Source: Eledone cirrhosa
Lineage: Eukaryota
Length of the DNA stretch: 64,000 nt
Direction: 5' to 3'
Assembly: GCA_964016885.1 (NCBI GenBank)
Contig: OZ024743.1
Span: forward strand, 40,610,001-40,674,000
Position 1 is the stretch's first letter. Each line of letters starts with the position of its first letter. The notes beneath the pieces were generated by a model that searched no databases, was not told the origin of the DNA, and saw only the letters and a program-made list of their open reading frames with translations. Shown here in pieces: positions 1,209 through 64,000 of this stretch. A program made the position numbers and the translations under genes.

Positions 1209-3320
1209 ATTGTTATACTTTGGGAGGGTCATGTTGCCAATAAGAAATACACGGACCAGACACTTTCACTACAATTTATTATAAATTAAATTCATAAAAT
1301 TAAAAATTTATAAATTTCCGGTTGGTTGGTTGGTTCCACAACCGAACGGTTGTTCATATATTGTCAAAGTTCTTTCGTCACACATTCTGTGACCTCTTCT
1401 ATGACTGGGGATTATTTTCTTTGTTTTGTGCCTCTCCTTTATTCTGTCCTACGCCATCTTGTTTTTGTGTGTGTTGTGTGCTTAGATTGCGCCTGTGTTA
1501 CATCCGGGTGCCTGTGTATGTTTTTATTTGTTTATTTATTTATTTGTTTATTAACATGTTACTGGGTGGTTGTTTGTTCTATGTGTGTGTGTGTTTTAAT
1601 TTTGTCCTTAATTTTAAGTTGTGATGTTGCTATTCCATTCATGTTTTCTATTTAATTTTGGTTGGAGTTCATTTATGTTTATTGCCTTTGTGATTTGTCT
1701 TAACAATGCATCTTTTCGGTGTGTAAATTTTATTTTTGTTTCTATGTTCTCTAATTTGTCCTTATGTTCTATTTTAGCATGTTAGTGGAGTATTGATGAT
1801 TCTTTTTTATCTTGAAGCTCTCGCCAGTGTTCATTTAACCGTTCTCTCATACTACGAACTGTCTCACCTATGTACACTATATTCTCATCTTTACATTGTC
1901 CTTCAGTACATCTTATGCTATATACTACATTTCTAGTTTTACAGTTAATATGGAGGCTTAGTTTACAGATTATGCATTTCTTATCTATACAGGGAGGTCT
2001 TTGAAAAGGGTATGTATTACAAATAAGTGTTTTTAATGGAGGTGCCTGGTCTTTCTACTATCTTAATATTAAGATGAAGTTTATCTACGGCCCTTCTAAA
2101 TTTGTAAGTAATTCACCTCTAGGGGTTGTATTTATGAAAATTACACTCAGGTATATATTGCTATCATACCATGAGTTTATTCTATTAACCTTATTCCTAG
2201 TTCTTTCTATTCTATTCCAAAATCTGCTCCTATACAAGGGGCAGGTCCCATTTGTATCATTATTTACTATTTTTTCCCATTTGGTTCTGGCTCCTCTATA
2301 TACTCAGAGTATATAGACGAGCCATAAATAGTAATAAATACCAGAGTGTAATGTTCATCAATACAACCCCTAGAGGTGAATTAGCTTACACATTTAGAAG
2401 GGCCCTAGATAAACTTAAACTTAATATTAAGATAGTAGAAAGACTAGGTACCTTCATAAAAACACTTATTTGTAATACATACCCTTTTCAAAGACCTCCC
2501 TGTATAGATAAGAAATGCATAATCTGTAAACTAGGCCTCCATATTAACTGTAAAACTAGAAATGTAGTATATAGCATAAGATGTACTGAAGGACAGTGTT
2601 AAGATAAGAATATAGTGTACATAGGTGAGACAGCTCGTAGTATAGGAGAACGGTTAAATGAACACCTGCGAGAGCTTCAAGATAAAAAAGAATCATCAGT
2701 ACTCCACCAACATGCTAAAATAGAACATAAGGGAAAATTAGAGAATATAGAAATAAAAATAAAATCTACACACAGAAAAGACGCTATGTTTAGACAAATC
2801 ACAGAGGCAATAAATATATATGAACTCCAACCAAAATTAAATAGAAAACATGAATGGAATAGCAACATCACAACTTACAATTAAGGACAAAATGAAAACA
2901 CACTACACACATAGAACAAACAACCAACCAGTAACATGTAAATAAACAAATAAATAAACAAATAAAAACACACACAGACACCCGGATGTAACACAGGCGC
3001 AAACTAGGCACACAACACACACAAAAACAAGATGGCGTAGGACAGAACAAAGGAGAGGCACACAACAAAGAAAATAATCCCCAGTCACTGAAGAGGTCAC
3101 AGAATGTGTGACGAAAGAACTTTGACAATATATGAACAACTGTCCGGTTGTGGAACCAACCAACCGGAAATGTATAAATTCTTTAATTTATAATAAATTG
3201 GAGTGATGGCATGTGCGTGTGTTTCTTATTGGCAACATGACCCTCCCAAAGTATAACAATATCGGTTTCAACACACGTTTTCAGACAAAGAATCTTGCTA
3301 AACAAATTCAGAAACAAAAT
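1209..3320. mobile_element. Penelope-like element family A, inverted dimer (minus arm ~1209-2288, plus arm ~2327-3260, tail to ~3320)
   Basis: GIY-YIG endonuclease translation (VVYSIRC...YIGETARSIGERLNEH...EAINI...PKLN) on the plus arm, interrupted by a stop at 2600-2602. The reverse-complement copy lies on the left. (TA)n on the left flank. Confidence 0.9.
3084..3126 (+). ncRNA. Type I minimal hammerhead ribozyme, PLE family A
   Basis: GTCA-CTGAAGA-G-GTCACA GAATG TGTGAC-GAAA-GAAC-TT-TGAC. The mirror copy at 1363-1405 (-) has its core mutated to TAGAAGA. Confidence 0.6.
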
Positions 3321-3764
3321 ATATCTATATACAATAAAGTATGAGCATAGAATCATTTGATAAGATATATACACCATCTCCTGTCCCAATCAGCATAATC
3401 AACCACACACAAAAACAATTAAACCAGGCATTAAAATCAAAAGGCACCTATGAAGAAATAATAGATAAATAAACGACAGCCATCTCTCCGCGATCAACAG
3501 CTATAGAATTTTTACCCAGAATTTCGATAGCACGTGGAAATTGATTAAATATATCGTCAACCATACACAATTAGGTATAGAATTAAAGTTAGAAGAAAAA
3601 ATGTATATATACATACCAAGATTACACATATATATATATATATATATGTATATATATATATATATATATATATATGTATATGTATATATATATATATATA
3701 TATATATATATATATATATATATATATATATGTATATATATATATATATGTATATATATCTATA

Positions 3765-4025
3765 TGGTTTGATGGTCTCTATTCTCTCTCGTCCACGATT
3801 TCACAGAACTTATATTCATCGATTTCAGGGATTTGACTCCTTCTTCCTCACTTTTCGTTGCATTACCATCTTTGATTGTTTACTGTCTCGCTCGTTTCCC
3901 TTATTTACGTGTCCTAACGACTTTCTTTAGCCGTTTCTCGCACCAACCGGAGGTATATGGTCTTTAAAGCGATGAAATACCAATGAAGGTTGGAAGATCA
4001 CTGATGACGGACTAAATTTATTCAT
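3765..4025. mobile_element. Unclassified (TA)n-flanked interspersed repeat, copy 1
   Basis: 3815-4025 aligns with 10918-11094 (cgttgc.taccatcttt...ggaagatcactgatga.ggacta). Confidence 0.6.
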
Positions 4026-60781: not shown

Positions 60782-61642
60782 GATGCAACGTTTTCAATGA
60801 TGGAGTTAGTGCTAACCATTCCAGGATCTTTGATACATACATCACTGCATATCTCTCCCATCTTCACTCCAGGGAGTACAATTTTAGGTCTTTCATCTTC
60901 TCCCAGTAGCTCATTTCTTTCATTGAAGCAATCCTCTTTATGTAGCTTAGTTGGATTGCTTCAAGTGCTGCAGTTAATTTGACACAGTAATAGCCCAATT
61001 GGCTGAAGAAGAAAGTCCTCCAGAGGAACAACATGATTTCCGGGTCTCTGGTCCTGAAAGAACTCAGAATCCAACCCCTCAGTCTTCTGCACTTTGCCAT
61101 GACTTTGGTGATGTGTGCATGAAAAGATGCATCATTGCTCATGTTAATACCTAGTTCCTGTATTGATTTTACTCAGGAATTTTGCTTCCTCCTGGTCTAG
61201 TGTACCTTTGCTGTTGTGGTCCTAGGTGTGTGGGTTGATAGTAGAGGGTTTGGATGTTAGTTGCATATTGTTGTCTTCAGCCCGTTTGTTTATGACTTCT
61301 AAATCTTGTTGTAAAAGTGTAGGATCAGCCAGTTTTTAGATTGCCTGAGCTACTTTCATGTCATAGCTAAGTGTGGCTGTCTGTATTACAGAGGGAATAT
61401 CTGAGTGAGCCACCACAATCAGTAGTGGATCCAAGATGCTTCCCTGTGGCATGTCTCTTGTTATTGACGTTTCCTTTGAGCAGAGCCTGTTGGCCGCAAC
61501 ACTCAGGCTTCTATCTTTTAAGAAGTCATGAAGCCATTCACCTAGTTTTCCAGCTATGTCCAAACTATGTAGTTTCTGACATATTATTTCATGATCAACC
61601 TTATTGATGGCCTTTGCAACATGGAGATATATCACATCCATG
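60782..61642 (-). mobile_element. Decayed CR1/L2-group LINE RT fragment
   Basis: DVIYLHVAKAINKVDH...WLHDFLKDR...PQGSILDPLL...SFHAHITKV..KC...GWILSSFRTRD...MSYWEKMKDLKLYSLE. Confidence 0.85.
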
Positions 61643-63015
61643 TATATATATATATATATATATATGGGAATATTAGACAATTCTATTAATATAATATGTA
61701 TGGATTCATGTATATATATATATGAATGTATGAACAATCATTCACAGATGCACAACAGCAAAATCCCCATTTTATACGCATTCATCATGGAGATTCACAT
61801 ATATACATGCAATGGACTACGAGGTATATTACAGCTAAAACACCTAAATATATGTACAGCAAAAAAAATAAACAAAACACTTTCTTAACAATACTGAACA
61901 CTTGTTGTTTTGGATAGAACAGAAAGAGAAATGGGGAGAGAGAGGGCGAGAACAATAATAAAGTATGTAAGGCTCCATTGCAGAAGGTTTTCATTCATTT
62001 CTCCATATTGAGTTCAGATTCTCATTTCATTTATCTCCCAACAAACTTAGAAATTTGTTGTATGTGCAGTTATCCACATATACACACTTGCAGAATTTAC
62101 ATATGTATATATATATGCTAAGATATTAACTGAAAGAGAGATATAGGCTGTCCAGATATGTATACATATATATATATATATATATATATATATATATATA
62201 TATATATATATATATATATATATATATATATTATATATATATAATAGATATATATATACATACATATACAAATAGATACTATACTCATACATGTATGTAT
62301 GTATGTATCTATGTATATATATATATATATATATATAGTATCTATTTATATACATACATACATATATAAATAAATACTTTATACATACATATATATATAT
62401 AGATACATACATACATATATGTGTGTGTGTATGTTTCATTATAAGTATATATATATAAACATAAATACACTCTGACTTAGCACTGAGTACTTATATAGGT
62501 ACTATCTCAAATAAACCCAGAAAGGTACCAAAATTATTGTAATGAAAGAAATGCAAATATTTTAAATTGTTATTATTGATTCTTCTTAAAAGAAATATAT
62601 GTAATATAAAGAACAGAACAGACATACACTCCTGCAGCTAAATTTACATGCAAAAATACCTGTATAATACATGCTCATTCATATAAAACATATCTGTATG
62701 TATATATTCATACATGCACATAAATAACTTTGTAAATATGTATGCATGTATAAATATGCATATATGTATGCTATTATGTAAACACATATTTATGCATATA
62801 TATATATATATATATATATATATATATATATATATATATATATATATATATATATATATATATATATATATATATATATATGTATATATATATATTTATT
62901 TATATATATGTATATATATATATATCTGTATGCATTTATATATATATATATATATATATATATATATATATATATATATATATATATATATATATATATA
63001 TATATATATATATAT

Positions 63016-64000
63016 AGTAATAATAATAAATTTGAAGACTAAAATCCAAAGAGGGCTCGATAAGGATAAATATATATCAAATATATAAGAACCGTAGAGC
63101 AAATATTTATTAAAATAACAGATTAAAGTTTAAGCAAAGAATCGCTGCTTTCACCCTTAACGAGATCTTCTGAAACTAACAAAGTCAATCTGTAAACGCA
63201 GAAGTGGATATTTCAAAAAACGTTGCAACGGGAGGTAGACAGGAAGACGATACTTTGGTTCGTGGAAACGTTCGCTGGTGAAGAACGGGAAAAAGCGAAT
63301 ATAATACGTCATTAATAGGAGCGGTGAAAAATAATTACGTGCAAAGACAGAACCACGTTTATGGTATAAAAGAGGTCGTAGACTAATGTTCTCTTTGGTG
63401 GTGCATAGAGACGTTCTCTGGCAATGAACAAAAAAAAAACGAAGATAATACGTCATATGAGGAGCGTGGAGAAGAATAGCACGCAAAGACAAAACCACGT
63501 AAATGGTATAGCAGAAGTCGTAGACTTAAATTCTAAATAGGAGACCGAATGAATCTCCGCTACAGAGTTAAGAACAAAGTAAATAAATACAATACAGAAG
63601 TAATAGAAATAAATAAATACATACACGCAAACAAATACGTACATACACAAGCATACGCAAAAAGTTACCATAGGTATACAAAACCACGCACATATAAATA
63701 TGTGTGCGTGTGTATGCGTGTATACACATAAATAAATAATTATATAAACGTATATAAATAAATAAATACTTATATAACAAGCGCACACACATACCTACAT
63801 GTAAATATACGAATGTTCGGAGACGTAAGTCAACCAAAACATGAAGTACACAATACACACACCCTACATACGTACGAACCTGCATACTCACACAGACGCA
63901 AAACTTCCGTATACACATAGCCAAACCATATGTACCAGAATATATAAAATTATACGCCATAACAATCAAATATACGTACCTTCACAAAACATACGGGTAA
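63016..64000 (-). mobile_element. PLE-type family C 3' region (probably continues beyond the window)
   Basis: 63016-63158 matches 35705-35849. Hammerhead-like CAGAAGA-TCTC GTTAA GGGT-GAAA at ~63149-63172. CpG-rich, with a 142 bp-period duplication (~63262-63384 and ~63405-63526). Confidence 0.6.

What the first reader, a model, noticed from the sequence alone, without database searches (positions are those of the whole stretch)
1209..63172. Many unrelated PLE families insert in (TA)n as 'fixed-boundary inverted arm + tail' hairpins
Seen: the insertions at 1209, 4099, 8489, 8905, 10373, 10737, 21938, 25783, 26830, 35663, 39960, 43180, 46680 and 56178 lie in or next to (TA)n. They comprise a 60-95 nt tail present on one side only and an inverted copy of the adjacent 3' region on the other. 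Within a family the inverted arm starts at the same point: AACAAT|AT in both family A copies, at or near TTCCTAT in four family B copies, and GATCTTATAT in both family E copies. The inner ends of the arms vary freely. Established: PLEs carry direct or inverted pseudo-LTRs, short 3' extensions and hammerheads. Inference: both nicked target strands prime cDNA, one at the tail and one at a fixed AT-containing boundary. Because the same sequence is copied twice, unlike L1 twin priming, two RNA copies (a dimer or tandem/circular template) would be needed. The regularity across at least 7 families in 64 kb may be an undescribed systematic mode of integration.
Basis: partly seen in the sequence, partly recalled or inferred. 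Interest (0 to 1): 0.8.

Follow-up and report, generated by a model that had tools for sequence, protein, structure and literature searches.

The report
Twin RNA hairpins mark Penelope ends
The hairpin-shaped insertions are real and show the already described landing pattern of Penelope-like jumping genes, but here the two arms almost always end at two different fixed points, and in most families each point lies just before a copy of the same small predicted RNA hairpin, which likely means that two enzyme copies start on one RNA at those two marks.

Summary
All 14 listed insertions are 5'-truncated Penelope-like elements (PLEs) in (TA)n, from 8 families. Each family has two fixed 3' ends genome-wide: S (tailless) and L (tail end).

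The architecture is published (inverted truncated copy, one-sided tail, (TA)n targets, two internal RT starts, both strands primed, predicted dimer: Craig 2021, Arkhipova 2013, Frangieh 2024). This scan also noted it on other genomes.

What I add:
(1) 104 of 107 inverted pairs join one S arm with one L arm.
(2) Both arms share the source haplotype.
(3) Often each arm holds sequence the other lacks, which excludes fold-back of one cDNA.
(4) In Hydra-clade families, S and L each lie 2-7 nt before a copy of an RCTC...GAGY stem (13 of 15 sites; background 0.2%). It placed the ends of a held-out family and recurs in 3 of 3 metagenome elements and in published sea-cucumber and coral consensus sequences. 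I did not find it described.

So two RNA copies are not required; one RNA primed twice fits better (inferred). Family A follows the S+L rule without this motif.

The parts
1209..3323 (.). Family A insertion: tailless (S) arm on the left (antisense, reaches further 5'), junction near 2313-2328, tail-bearing (L) arm on the right with the GIY-YIG end, hammerhead core 3088-3116 (+), 60-nt tail
4099..4793 (.). Family C (Hydra clade): L arm left (sense on -), S arm right; hammerhead cores 4220-4267 (-) and 4701-4749 (+)
4146..4168 (-). Motif copy 1 in the family C tail (GCTCTG...AGAGCAC stem)
8489..8779 (.). Family F (Hydra clade): S arm left, L arm right; minimal hammerhead cores 8558-8570 (-) and 8630-8642 (+); motif copy 1 at 8719-8741 (+)
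8905..9081 (.). Family B (Hydra clade): about 15-nt S arm left, L arm right; motif copy 1 within 9009-9034 (+)
10374..10680 (.). Family G: S arm left (reaches further 5'), L arm right, tail about 100 nt; hammerhead core 10426-10456 (-); motif copy 1 at 10572-10606 (+)
10737..10906 (.). Family D-like: L arm left, S arm right; the motif stem has a G-U pair in this copy
21941..22056 (.). Family B: about 20-nt S arm left, L arm right; motif copy 1 within 21984-22009 (+)
25783..26390 (.). Family E: short L arm left, longer S arm right (each arm holds sequence the other lacks); motif copy 1 near 25842-25868 (sense on -)
26832..28590 (.). Family B: long L arm left with the GIY-YIG region (27981-28412, -), short S arm at 28504-28590; motif copy 1 within 26878-26903 (-)
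35663..35848 (.). Family H (Hydra clade): S arm left, L arm right, 88-nt tail; motif copy 1 at 35764-35811 (+)
39962..40166 (.). Family B: L arm left, S arm right; motif copy 1 within 40010-40035 (-)
43180..43315 (.). Family E: inverted S arm joined to a tail-only L arm that begins inside the motif loop; an inversion without a palindrome
46680..46902 (.). Family D (Hydra clade): S arm left, L arm right; motif copy 1 at 46836-46856 (+)
56179..57971 (.). Family A: near-perfect 1.7-kb palindrome, S arm left, L arm right; GIY-YIG ORF ends 56579-57130 (-) and 56976-57527 (+); hammerhead cores 56345-56373 (-) and 57733-57761 (+); tail about 57912-57971 = about ORF codons 9-28
63017..64000 (-). Family H: L arm; motif copy 1 at 63053-63100 (-); the S partner lies beyond the window end

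Best explanation
These are insertions of endonuclease-bearing Penelope-like retroelements in (TA)n whose two arms end at two fixed sites, S and L, and they likely arise by twin target-primed reverse transcription in which two RT subunits would each sit on one of two adjacent RNA hairpins of a single template and prime from opposite nicked target strands. Shown here: two fixed 3' ends per family; S+L pairing; 2-5 nt of TA-type identity at both ends; shared haplotype of the arms; in Hydra-clade families a repeated RCTC...GAGY-RC stem starting 2-7 nt 3' of S (first bases of the tail) and 3' of L (never copied into the end; seen only in tandem copies, between tail and start codon). Shown elsewhere, for a Poseidon element in vitro: nicking and extension of both strands and two internal starts bracketing the tail (the dimer there is a prediction). 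Inferred: the stems are protein-binding marks that set the start sites; the L-primed RT reads through the tail and displaces the S-primed cDNA from the same RNA; the two cDNA 3' ends are joined head to head by microhomology or short templated fill-in. A template with both marks downstream of the ORF would have to be tandem or circular, or be reached by strand transfer between pseudo-LTRs (not resolved).
For: S+L in 104 of 107 pairs over 8 families (hand tally; binomial p about 3e-27), and in 61 of 61 pairs for the four families queried without tail bias (A, C, F, H). Held-out family I: 8 of 8 pairs. De novo scan of about 1.75 Mb: 156 one-sided against 11 symmetric uninterrupted units. The S arm reaches further 5' in 47 pairs, the L arm in 23, and the ends are within 10 nt in 18 (sign test p=0.006; coincidence 18 against 9.1, reached in 0 of 5000 permutations). 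Tail-only inverted arms at window 43180, L129, L175, L176. Family A arms share derived alleles at 4.4/kb against 0.34/kb in random pairs, and differ at diagnostic sites at 0.4/kb against 4.3/kb, even where each arm has unique sequence. Motif at 13 of 15 Hydra-type end sites against 5 of 2240 background positions. The stem ends covary (GCTC/GAGC, ACTC/GAGT, GCAC/GTGC), also between the two copies of one family. Family I ends fall where its motifs put them: 9 of 30 arms end 3 nt before copy 2, and most others just before copy 1. Two copies are present in 3 of 3 metagenome Hydra elements with upstream DNA; one of them ends 3 nt before copy 2 in (TA)n. The motif is visible in published consensus sequences Hydra-1_Ajap (both copies), Hydra-2_Ajap and Hydra-2_Amil. 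Junctions: 20 of the 22 without extra bases overlap by 1-6 nt, 14 by 2 nt or more, against 16% expected.
Against: No biochemical test was run; binding to the stem is inferred from position and covariation. The tails fold only modestly better than shuffles (z from +0.4 to -3.0). Family A (and roughly 16-20 of 35 tail clusters) obeys the one-sided rule without this motif, so the motif is not the general cause. The search expression was written after seeing B, C, E, F, H and was widened to GCAC/GTGC after D showed no GCTC at L, so only family I, the metagenome loci and the published sequences are held out. E (L end, one copy) and G (S end) miss the strict expression, and G's L context was not obtained. 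Symmetric S+S or L+L units exist (3 of 107; 11 of 167 de novo) and need a second RNA or fold-back. About half of the insertions show no inverted partner (117 of 224; flanks of D, E, G were mostly not extended past 1.5 kb). Gene conversion between arms could mimic shared haplotypes. Frangieh 2024 report RT starts not homologous to the target, whereas here both ends lie at TA-type microhomology. Strand displacement by a PLE RT is not shown.
Confidence: 0.6

Rival explanations
1. Two RNA molecules: an asymmetric protein dimer holds two transcripts, usually from the same source locus or two units of one tandem transcript, and primes one at S and the other at L.
For: No strand displacement is needed. 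It explains the symmetric S+S and L+L minority and the 23 pairs where the L arm is longer. A dimer is predicted for PAc. R2-type proteins use two subunits (search listing only).
Against: It needs an extra rule to forbid S+S and L+L (93-97% heterotypic) and another to keep both RNAs from one source. It does not predict coinciding inner ends, nor why the two marks lie side by side on one RNA.
Confidence: 0.22
2. Self-priming fold-back: one cDNA primed at L folds back and copies itself, and the endonuclease resolves the intermediate at S (close to Arkhipova 2013 and Craig 2021).
For: It gives identical haplotypes, near-perfect palindromes (18 of 88) and junction microhomology, and is possible for the 23 L-longer and 18 coinciding pairs. 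The published wording attributes the tail to endonuclease-mediated resolution and junction palindromes to self-priming.
Against: It is geometrically impossible for the 47 of 88 pairs where the tailless arm reaches further 5' than the tail arm, and for tail-only arms (43180, L129, L175, L176). Single insertions end at S about as often as at L.
Confidence: 0.1
3. The ends are set only by TA microhomology and an RT pause or a self-cleavage site; the stems are incidental, for example translation or promoter signals near the start codon.
For: Both ends lie at TA-type identity with the target in every family. Copy 2 lies shortly upstream of the start codon. Family A has fixed ends without the stem.
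Against: These AT-rich 3' regions hold many other TA sites that are not used. The 5' strand of the stem keeps a 2-7 nt distance to the end while loop length varies from 5 to about 66 nt and tail length from about 55 to 105 nt. The hammerhead cores lie upstream of S and are copied intact into the arms.
Confidence: 0.06
4. Artefact or chance: long-read fold-back errors, or two independent insertions into one (TA)n tract.
For: (TA)n tracts do collect several insertions (22 one-sided and 14 symmetric units contain an internal TA run). The window's 1209 junction was not bridged in four public runs.
Against: The arms are diverged and asymmetric and join without TA between them. In the first 100 listed family I matches there are 24 head-to-head against 2 tail-to-tail neighbours within about 5 kb (counted by eye). 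Strand-switch joints recur at the same breakpoints in Illumina reads of two samples. Arms share haplotypes.
Confidence: 0.02

Closest known systems
Canonical EN+ PLE insertion unit (Craig, Yushenova, Rodriguez, Arkhipova 2021, PMC8557442, Fig. 2; Arkhipova et al. 2013, PMC3846280)
   Same: 5'-truncated copies, partial tandems forming pseudo-LTRs, an adjacent inverted 5'-truncated copy, a tail often at one end only, hammerheads in the pseudo-LTR, microsatellite targets. In family A the tail is the ORF's first codons, as for Pen2a of Adineta.
   Different: Tails here are about 60-105 nt rather than 30-40. The one-S-one-L rule, the arm-length geometry and the haplotype sharing are quantified here. 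In Hydra-type families the tail lies upstream of the start codon.
Hydra clade of PLEs (Craig 2021; Hydra-1_Obim, Hydra-1/2_Ajap, Hydra-1/2_Amil, Hydra-1_Crog, Penelope-n_HM)
   Same: C-terminal GIY-YIG, RWK and DKT motifs, canonical hammerhead, (TA)n preference (supplementary File S1), presence in Octopus.
   Different: The duplicated RCTC...GAGY stem 3' of both ends is present in their consensus sequences but is not mentioned in the passages and supplement parts I read.
PAc (Poseidon of Anolis carolinensis) in vitro (Frangieh et al. 2024, PMC11167929)
   Same: Internal RT initiation at two sites bracketing the tail, both strands cut and extended, AT-rich target, required RNA lying 3' of the start sites, uncleaved RNA as template, predicted dimer.
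   Different: A different clade. They describe one AC-rich stem-loop and no homology to the target, and propose no twin priming, S+L pairing or duplicated binding mark in the text I read.
L1 twin priming (Ostertag and Kazazian 2001; recalled, paper not held)
   Same: Two primers from opposite target strands on one RNA, head-to-head inversion, junction microhomology. The tail-only cases look just like it.
   Different: In L1 the second site is variable and the segments do not overlap. Here the second site is fixed and the segments usually overlap, which needs re-reading of the template.
Circular or multimeric template model for PLEs (Cervera and De la Pena 2014, PMC4209133) and non-LTR retrozymes (bioRxiv 10.64898/2026.07.22.740005)
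   Same: Would supply a template with both marks downstream of the ORF and explain variable partial tandems. A hammerhead tandem array of family D exists in this genome.
   Different: It concerns head-to-tail tandems, not inverted arms, and was not tested here.

Membership tests
EN+ Penelope-like elements | [quoted passage not shown] | tested here: met
   Near-full-length copies of A (L035, L042, L047), B (L299), C (L322), H (L219) translate to RT plus GIY-YIG. Pfam RVT_1 and GIY-YIG hit family A just below cut-off; no Pfam hit for the Hydra-type pieces. D and F: ORF start seen. E: endonuclease hits upstream only. G: not shown.
EN+ Penelope-like elements | Partial tandems forming pseudo-LTRs, inverted 5'-truncated copy | tested here: met
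   L035, L042, L047, L056, L066, L134, L219; L047 and L066 show inverted plus direct pseudo-LTR plus body.
EN+ Penelope-like elements | Hammerhead core in the pseudo-LTR | tested here: met
   CTGANGA...GAAA cores upstream of S in A, C, D, E, F, G and in an H copy; degenerate in B. Rfam listed no hammerhead family among the 150 rows shown. Cleavage was not tested.
EN+ Penelope-like elements | 30-40-nt tail at one end | tested here: inconclusive
   One-sided tail met; the length is 60-105 nt, outside the published range.
EN+ Penelope-like elements | RT phylogeny with telomerase as sister group | not tested
   No tree was built; placement rests on motifs.
Hydra clade (families B, C, D, F, H, I) | RWK motif and DKG changed to DKT | tested here: met
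   RWK/RWR and SDKT in B, C, F; RWR in H. D and I are assigned by N-terminal similarity only.
Hydra clade (families B, C, D, F, H, I) | Endonuclease without the CCHH motif; (TA)n target | tested here: met
Neptune or Nematis clade (family A) | CX2-5CxxC linker before GIY-YIG, CCHH present | tested here: met
   CIDKKCITC linker and C..C..H..H in the endonuclease.
Neptune or Nematis clade (family A) | Placement in one of the two clades by RT tree; DKG motif | tested here: inconclusive
   A reads DKSG, which matches neither alignment shown in the supplement; homologs carry no clade names.
L1-type twin priming | Non-overlapping segments and a variable second priming site | tested here: not met
   The second site is fixed and the segments overlap in most pairs; they are non-overlapping only in tail-only cases. 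It works like twin priming but is not the L1 pattern.
L1-type twin priming | Target-site duplication flanking the unit | not testable with these tools
   Both ends lie in (TA)n, and no empty orthologous sites were available.

The most novel reading that the evidence does not exclude
Hydra-clade PLE RNA carries two tandem copies of one protein-binding hairpin that act as a molecular ruler. Each copy docks one subunit of the RT-endonuclease dimer and fixes a start site 2-7 nt upstream, so a single RNA is reverse-transcribed twice from both strands of a cut (TA)n target, the second RT displacing the first cDNA. This would explain the tail and the inverted pseudo-LTR of PLEs in one step, and the mark is conserved from octopod to sea cucumber and coral elements.
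Probability: 0.5. Interest if true: 0.75.

Novelty: new variant of a known kind. Interest (0 to 1): 0.58.

Why it matters
Craig 2021 name the origin of the tandem/inverted structures and of the microsatellite bias as the open task for PLE biochemistry, and Frangieh 2024 leave the later steps unvalidated. The architecture itself is old news. The strict S+L pairing, the exclusion of fold-back in most resolved pairs, and above all a named, covarying RNA element sitting a fixed few bases 3' of each start site turn the question into a short mutagenesis and barcoding experiment. If right, PLEs, the closest retroelement relatives of telomerase RT, would position their template by an RNA boundary mark and copy one RNA twice. 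For annotation, the motif gives the true ends of Hydra-clade elements, one family of which has at least 15,206 arms in this genome.

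Tried and rejected
Unmasked self-BLAST was swamped by (TA)n. 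Rfam gave only microRNA-type matches to simple repeats and hairpins and no hammerhead among the 150 rows shown. An all-against-all estimate of 5' extents was confounded by other hairpins and dropped; I used natural long copies as references instead. Recurrent arm-to-arm differences at single sites (H 3133, B 3012, several in A) first looked like two source loci or RNA editing; they are alleles of the search query that the top-40 ranking selects for. Removing such columns sharpened the same-source result in A (not redone for B, C, H). A DNA search for family I returned nothing because common AT-rich words are skipped; a pattern search worked. The single-reference junction analysis was noisy; the multi-copy version left 16 of 44 junctions with more than 3 extra or unresolved letters. 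Laying public runs on the 1209 junction gave no bridging record; the opposite-strand joint there only reflects the family's continuous sequence, so it is no evidence either way. The prediction of a literal GCTC stem after the D tail failed; a GCAC/GTGC stem stands there. No complex or structure was predicted (a dimer exceeds the size limit). Rows left out of counts: duplicate loci (L002, L004, L018, L030, L086, L133, L135, L139, L236), 11 family D loci in a tandem array (L144-L154), two uncertain pairs (L166, L199), inverted units whose outer end was broken or outside the fetched DNA (L003, L036, L040, L083, L090, L095, L106, L243), and, for arm-length counts, tandem or unresolved pairs (88 of 107 used). 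[quoted passage not shown]

Full report
SETTING. The window is G000:C4:40610001-40674000 of a 3.0-Gb assembly, 32% GC and dense in (TA)n. The best homolog of the family A protein is from Octopus vulgaris at 73% identity, so the host is likely an octopod (inference).

1. THE OBSERVATION. Masked self-BLAST and direct reading confirm all 14 listed insertions and the one at 63017. They fall into eight families: A (1209, 56178), B (8905, 21938, 26830, 39960), C (4099), D (10737, 46680), E (25783, 43180), F (8489), G (10373), H (35663, 63017). Each has two arms joined head to head, 3' ends outward in (TA)n; one arm stops at a tailless site (S), the other runs 60-105 nt further (L). At 43180 the L arm is tail only, so there is an inversion without a palindrome. 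Eight copies of the SINE-like family in the window show no such arm.

2. WHAT THE ELEMENTS ARE. I searched the genome once per family (30 loci each, the best 40 of 42-1572 candidates scored) and extended the unresolved loci of A, B, C, F and H, and one each of D and E. Tandem copies give the ORFs. Family A has RT, a CX4CxxC linker and a GIY-YIG with CCHH, an N/T/H-rich insert, and a tail equal to about ORF codons 9-28; this is Neptune/Nematis-like, and the clade is not resolved. B, C, F and H have RWK/RWR and, where read, DKT, the marks of the Hydra clade; D joins by its ORF start; E has Hydra-like endonuclease hits upstream; G is linked only by hammerhead and motif. Hammerhead cores lie upstream of S and are copied intact.

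3. THE RULE, GENOME-WIDE. Every family has the same two ends throughout the genome. Of 224 distinct insertions, 107 show an inverted partner with both outer ends visible: A 18 of 30, B 21 of 30, C 10 of 27, D 6 of 19, E 12 of 29, F 15 of 30, G 7 of 29, H 18 of 30 (hand tally; a lower bound, because D, E and G flanks were mostly 1.5 kb). Of these, 104 join S with a tail-bearing arm (two in A with a partial tail); the exceptions are L062 and L165 (L+L) and L260 (S+S). The B and E queries included 10-14 tail bases and favour L arms, but the four unbiased families give 61 of 61. A de novo scan of all fetched DNA found 263 distinct TA-flanked inverted repeats: of those without an internal TA run, 156 have a one-sided tail, 11 are symmetric and 39 fit neither class. 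So the rule holds at 93-97%, not absolutely.

4. GEOMETRY. In 88 pairs with resolved inner ends, the S arm reaches further 5' in 47, the L arm in 23, and the ends coincide within 10 nt in 18. In the 47, each arm holds sequence that the other lacks, so one cDNA folding back on itself cannot have made them; the same goes for tail-only arms (43180, L129, L175, L176). Coincidence exceeds permutation (18 against 9.1; strongest in B), as expected if both cDNAs run to the 5' end of one molecule, though fold-back would also give it. Of 44 junctions in A, C and H, 20 overlap by 1-6 nt, 2 are blunt and 22 have extra or unresolved letters; among the 22 clean ones, 14 overlap by 2 nt or more against 16% expected.

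5. SOURCE OF THE TWO ARMS. In all four families tested, true pairs share derived alleles more often and differ at diagnostic sites less often than random pairs. After removing columns private to the query, family A pairs with the longer S arm share 4.4 per kb against 0.34 and differ at 0.4 against 4.3. The two reads therefore come from one source, not from the family pool. Later gene conversion between arms is not excluded.

6. A DUPLICATED MARK AT BOTH ENDS. Aligning ends on tandem copies shows that in B, C, E, F and H a stem RCTC...GAGY followed by AC/GC begins 2-7 nt after S, and a second copy begins 2-4 nt after L, in sequence that never enters a 3' end. Loop length varies from 5 to about 66 nt; the stem ends covary. 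A fixed expression matches 13 of 15 Hydra-type sites against 5 of 2240 background positions, and neither end of A. Tests outside the discovery set:
(a) D: I predicted GCTC after L and found a GCAC/GTGC stem about 7 nt on, a structural but not literal match.
(b) Family I, found only through its ORF start, has ACTC/GAGT and GCTC/GAGC copies. Of its first 30 genomic matches (15,206 in all), 9 end 3 nt before copy 2, 18 end at or just before copy 1 (one on inspection), 2 end 17 nt before copy 2 and 1 diverges earlier; all 8 head-to-head pairs among them are S+L.
(c) 15 of 35 de novo tail clusters have the stem within 12 nt of S, against 2% background (the seven window families and I are among them).
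(d) All 3 metagenome Hydra elements with upstream DNA, of 5 loci, carry two copies between hammerhead region and start codon; L393 ends 3 nt before copy 2 in (TA)n and L391 diverges 3 nt before copy 1.
(e) Of the 6 published Hydra consensus sequences, read by eye, Hydra-1_Ajap starts with both copies, Hydra-2_Ajap and Hydra-2_Amil have copy 1 in the tail, Hydra-1_Crog and Hydra-1_Obim show looser versions, and Hydra-1_Amil is unclear.

7. ARTEFACT CHECK. Arms differ by about 1-15% and are asymmetric. Raw Illumina reads of two samples of the same species label show strand-switch joints in family A at identical breakpoints, and short-read contigs show (TA)n loose ends at S. The window's own 1209 junction was not bridged, which proves nothing either way.

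8. MECHANISM. Best reading (0.6): twin target-primed reverse transcription on one RNA. The endonuclease nicks both strands of (TA)n (shown for PAc). Each subunit of a dimer (predicted for PAc) would bind one stem and prime just 5' of it at a 2-5 nt TA match. The L-primed RT would cross the tail and displace the S cDNA; R2 RT, which lacks RNase H, does displace annealed strands. That PLE RTs lack RNase H is recalled; Pfam found none in the pieces scanned. The cDNA ends are then joined. This gives S+L pairing, one haplotype, a longer S arm on average, and tail-only arms when the second RT stalls. Rivals: two RNAs from one source in an asymmetric dimer (0.22), fold-back with endonuclease resolution (0.1, possible only for a subset), incidental stems (0.06), artefact (0.02). 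How a daughter copy regains both marks downstream of its ORF is open: a tandem or circular template or strand transfer.

9. COMPARISON WITH WHAT IS KNOWN. Papers seen: Frangieh 2024 (parts 1-2 of 4 of the text; supplement search without hits); Craig 2021 (passages; supplement rows and parts 52-53); Arkhipova 2013 (passages); Cervera 2014 (passages); a 2026 retrozyme preprint (passages); Jamburuthugoda 2014 (passages); L1 twin priming recalled only. The inverted copy, one-sided tail, (TA)n preference, Octopus Hydra element and two RT starts are all in print. Earlier AI notes of this scan report the same architecture in other genomes; none was found for this genome, and none of the notes shown mentions the motif. 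I did not find the S+L count, the geometric exclusion of fold-back or the duplicated stem in seven library searches; subscription papers were out of reach.

10. VERDICT. The architecture is known. The duplicated RNA mark and the one-RNA model are new as far as I could search and are directly testable. Interest 0.58.

Noticed in passing
G000:C28 about 30.56-30.85 Mb (L144-L154): Long tandem array of a 78-bp unit made of the family D hammerhead region up to just past S; a retrozyme-like satellite derived from a PLE pseudo-LTR.
   Followed up: no
window 43102-43115 and 43340-43352: The (TA)n-E-(TA)n unit is flanked by a 13-bp inverted copy of the neighbouring unique DNA; possibly an inverted target duplication or an older hairpin.
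   Followed up: no
L225 (H), L138 (C), L351 (D), L129 (C), window 43180 (E): Several cDNAs stop exactly at or inside a motif copy (5' ends at the 3' strand of copy 2 or copy 1), as if a bound protein blocked the RT; too few for statistics.
   Followed up: partly
L031:6385 and 8560, L046:7414, L104:1676, L377:2646: About five tail clusters without the Hydra stem share an ACTCG(T/C)G-like word in 40-71-nt tails; possibly the equivalent mark of another PLE clade.
   Followed up: no
L035, L042 (family A ORF): Long asparagine/threonine/histidine-rich insert in the N-terminal half of the ORF, like the N-rich inserts reported for Adineta Penelope families.
   Followed up: no
families E, F, G ends (e.g. 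L084, L093, L185, L239): Many ends run into (CA)n or (GT)n before (TA)n; either priming in mixed microsatellites or RT slippage at initiation.
   Followed up: no
L174 (family F): The inverted arm is a tandem array of at least 15 copies of a 57-bp unit containing the S end.
   Followed up: no
family E ref 1385-1398; family F ref 617-635: Inner ends pile up about 175 nt (E) and 130 nt (F) upstream of S, perhaps the transcription start in the pseudo-LTR or an RT stop.
   Followed up: partly
window 40850-42369 (+): Frameshifted non-LTR RT remnant (Pfam RVT_1, E 1.4e-23); a further weak RT piece at 61336-61737 (-).
   Followed up: no
window 28858-29471: 30-bp-period tandem repeat with open frames on the - strand.
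   Followed up: no
L392 (metagenome contig): Hydra element present as a near-identical head-to-tail tandem with period 2427 bp; a real multimer or an assembly of a circle.
   Followed up: no
P0072: A protein annotated as dynein regulatory complex subunit 6-like in Octopus vulgaris contains a 77%-identical piece of family A RT; probably a gene model that captured the element.
   Followed up: no
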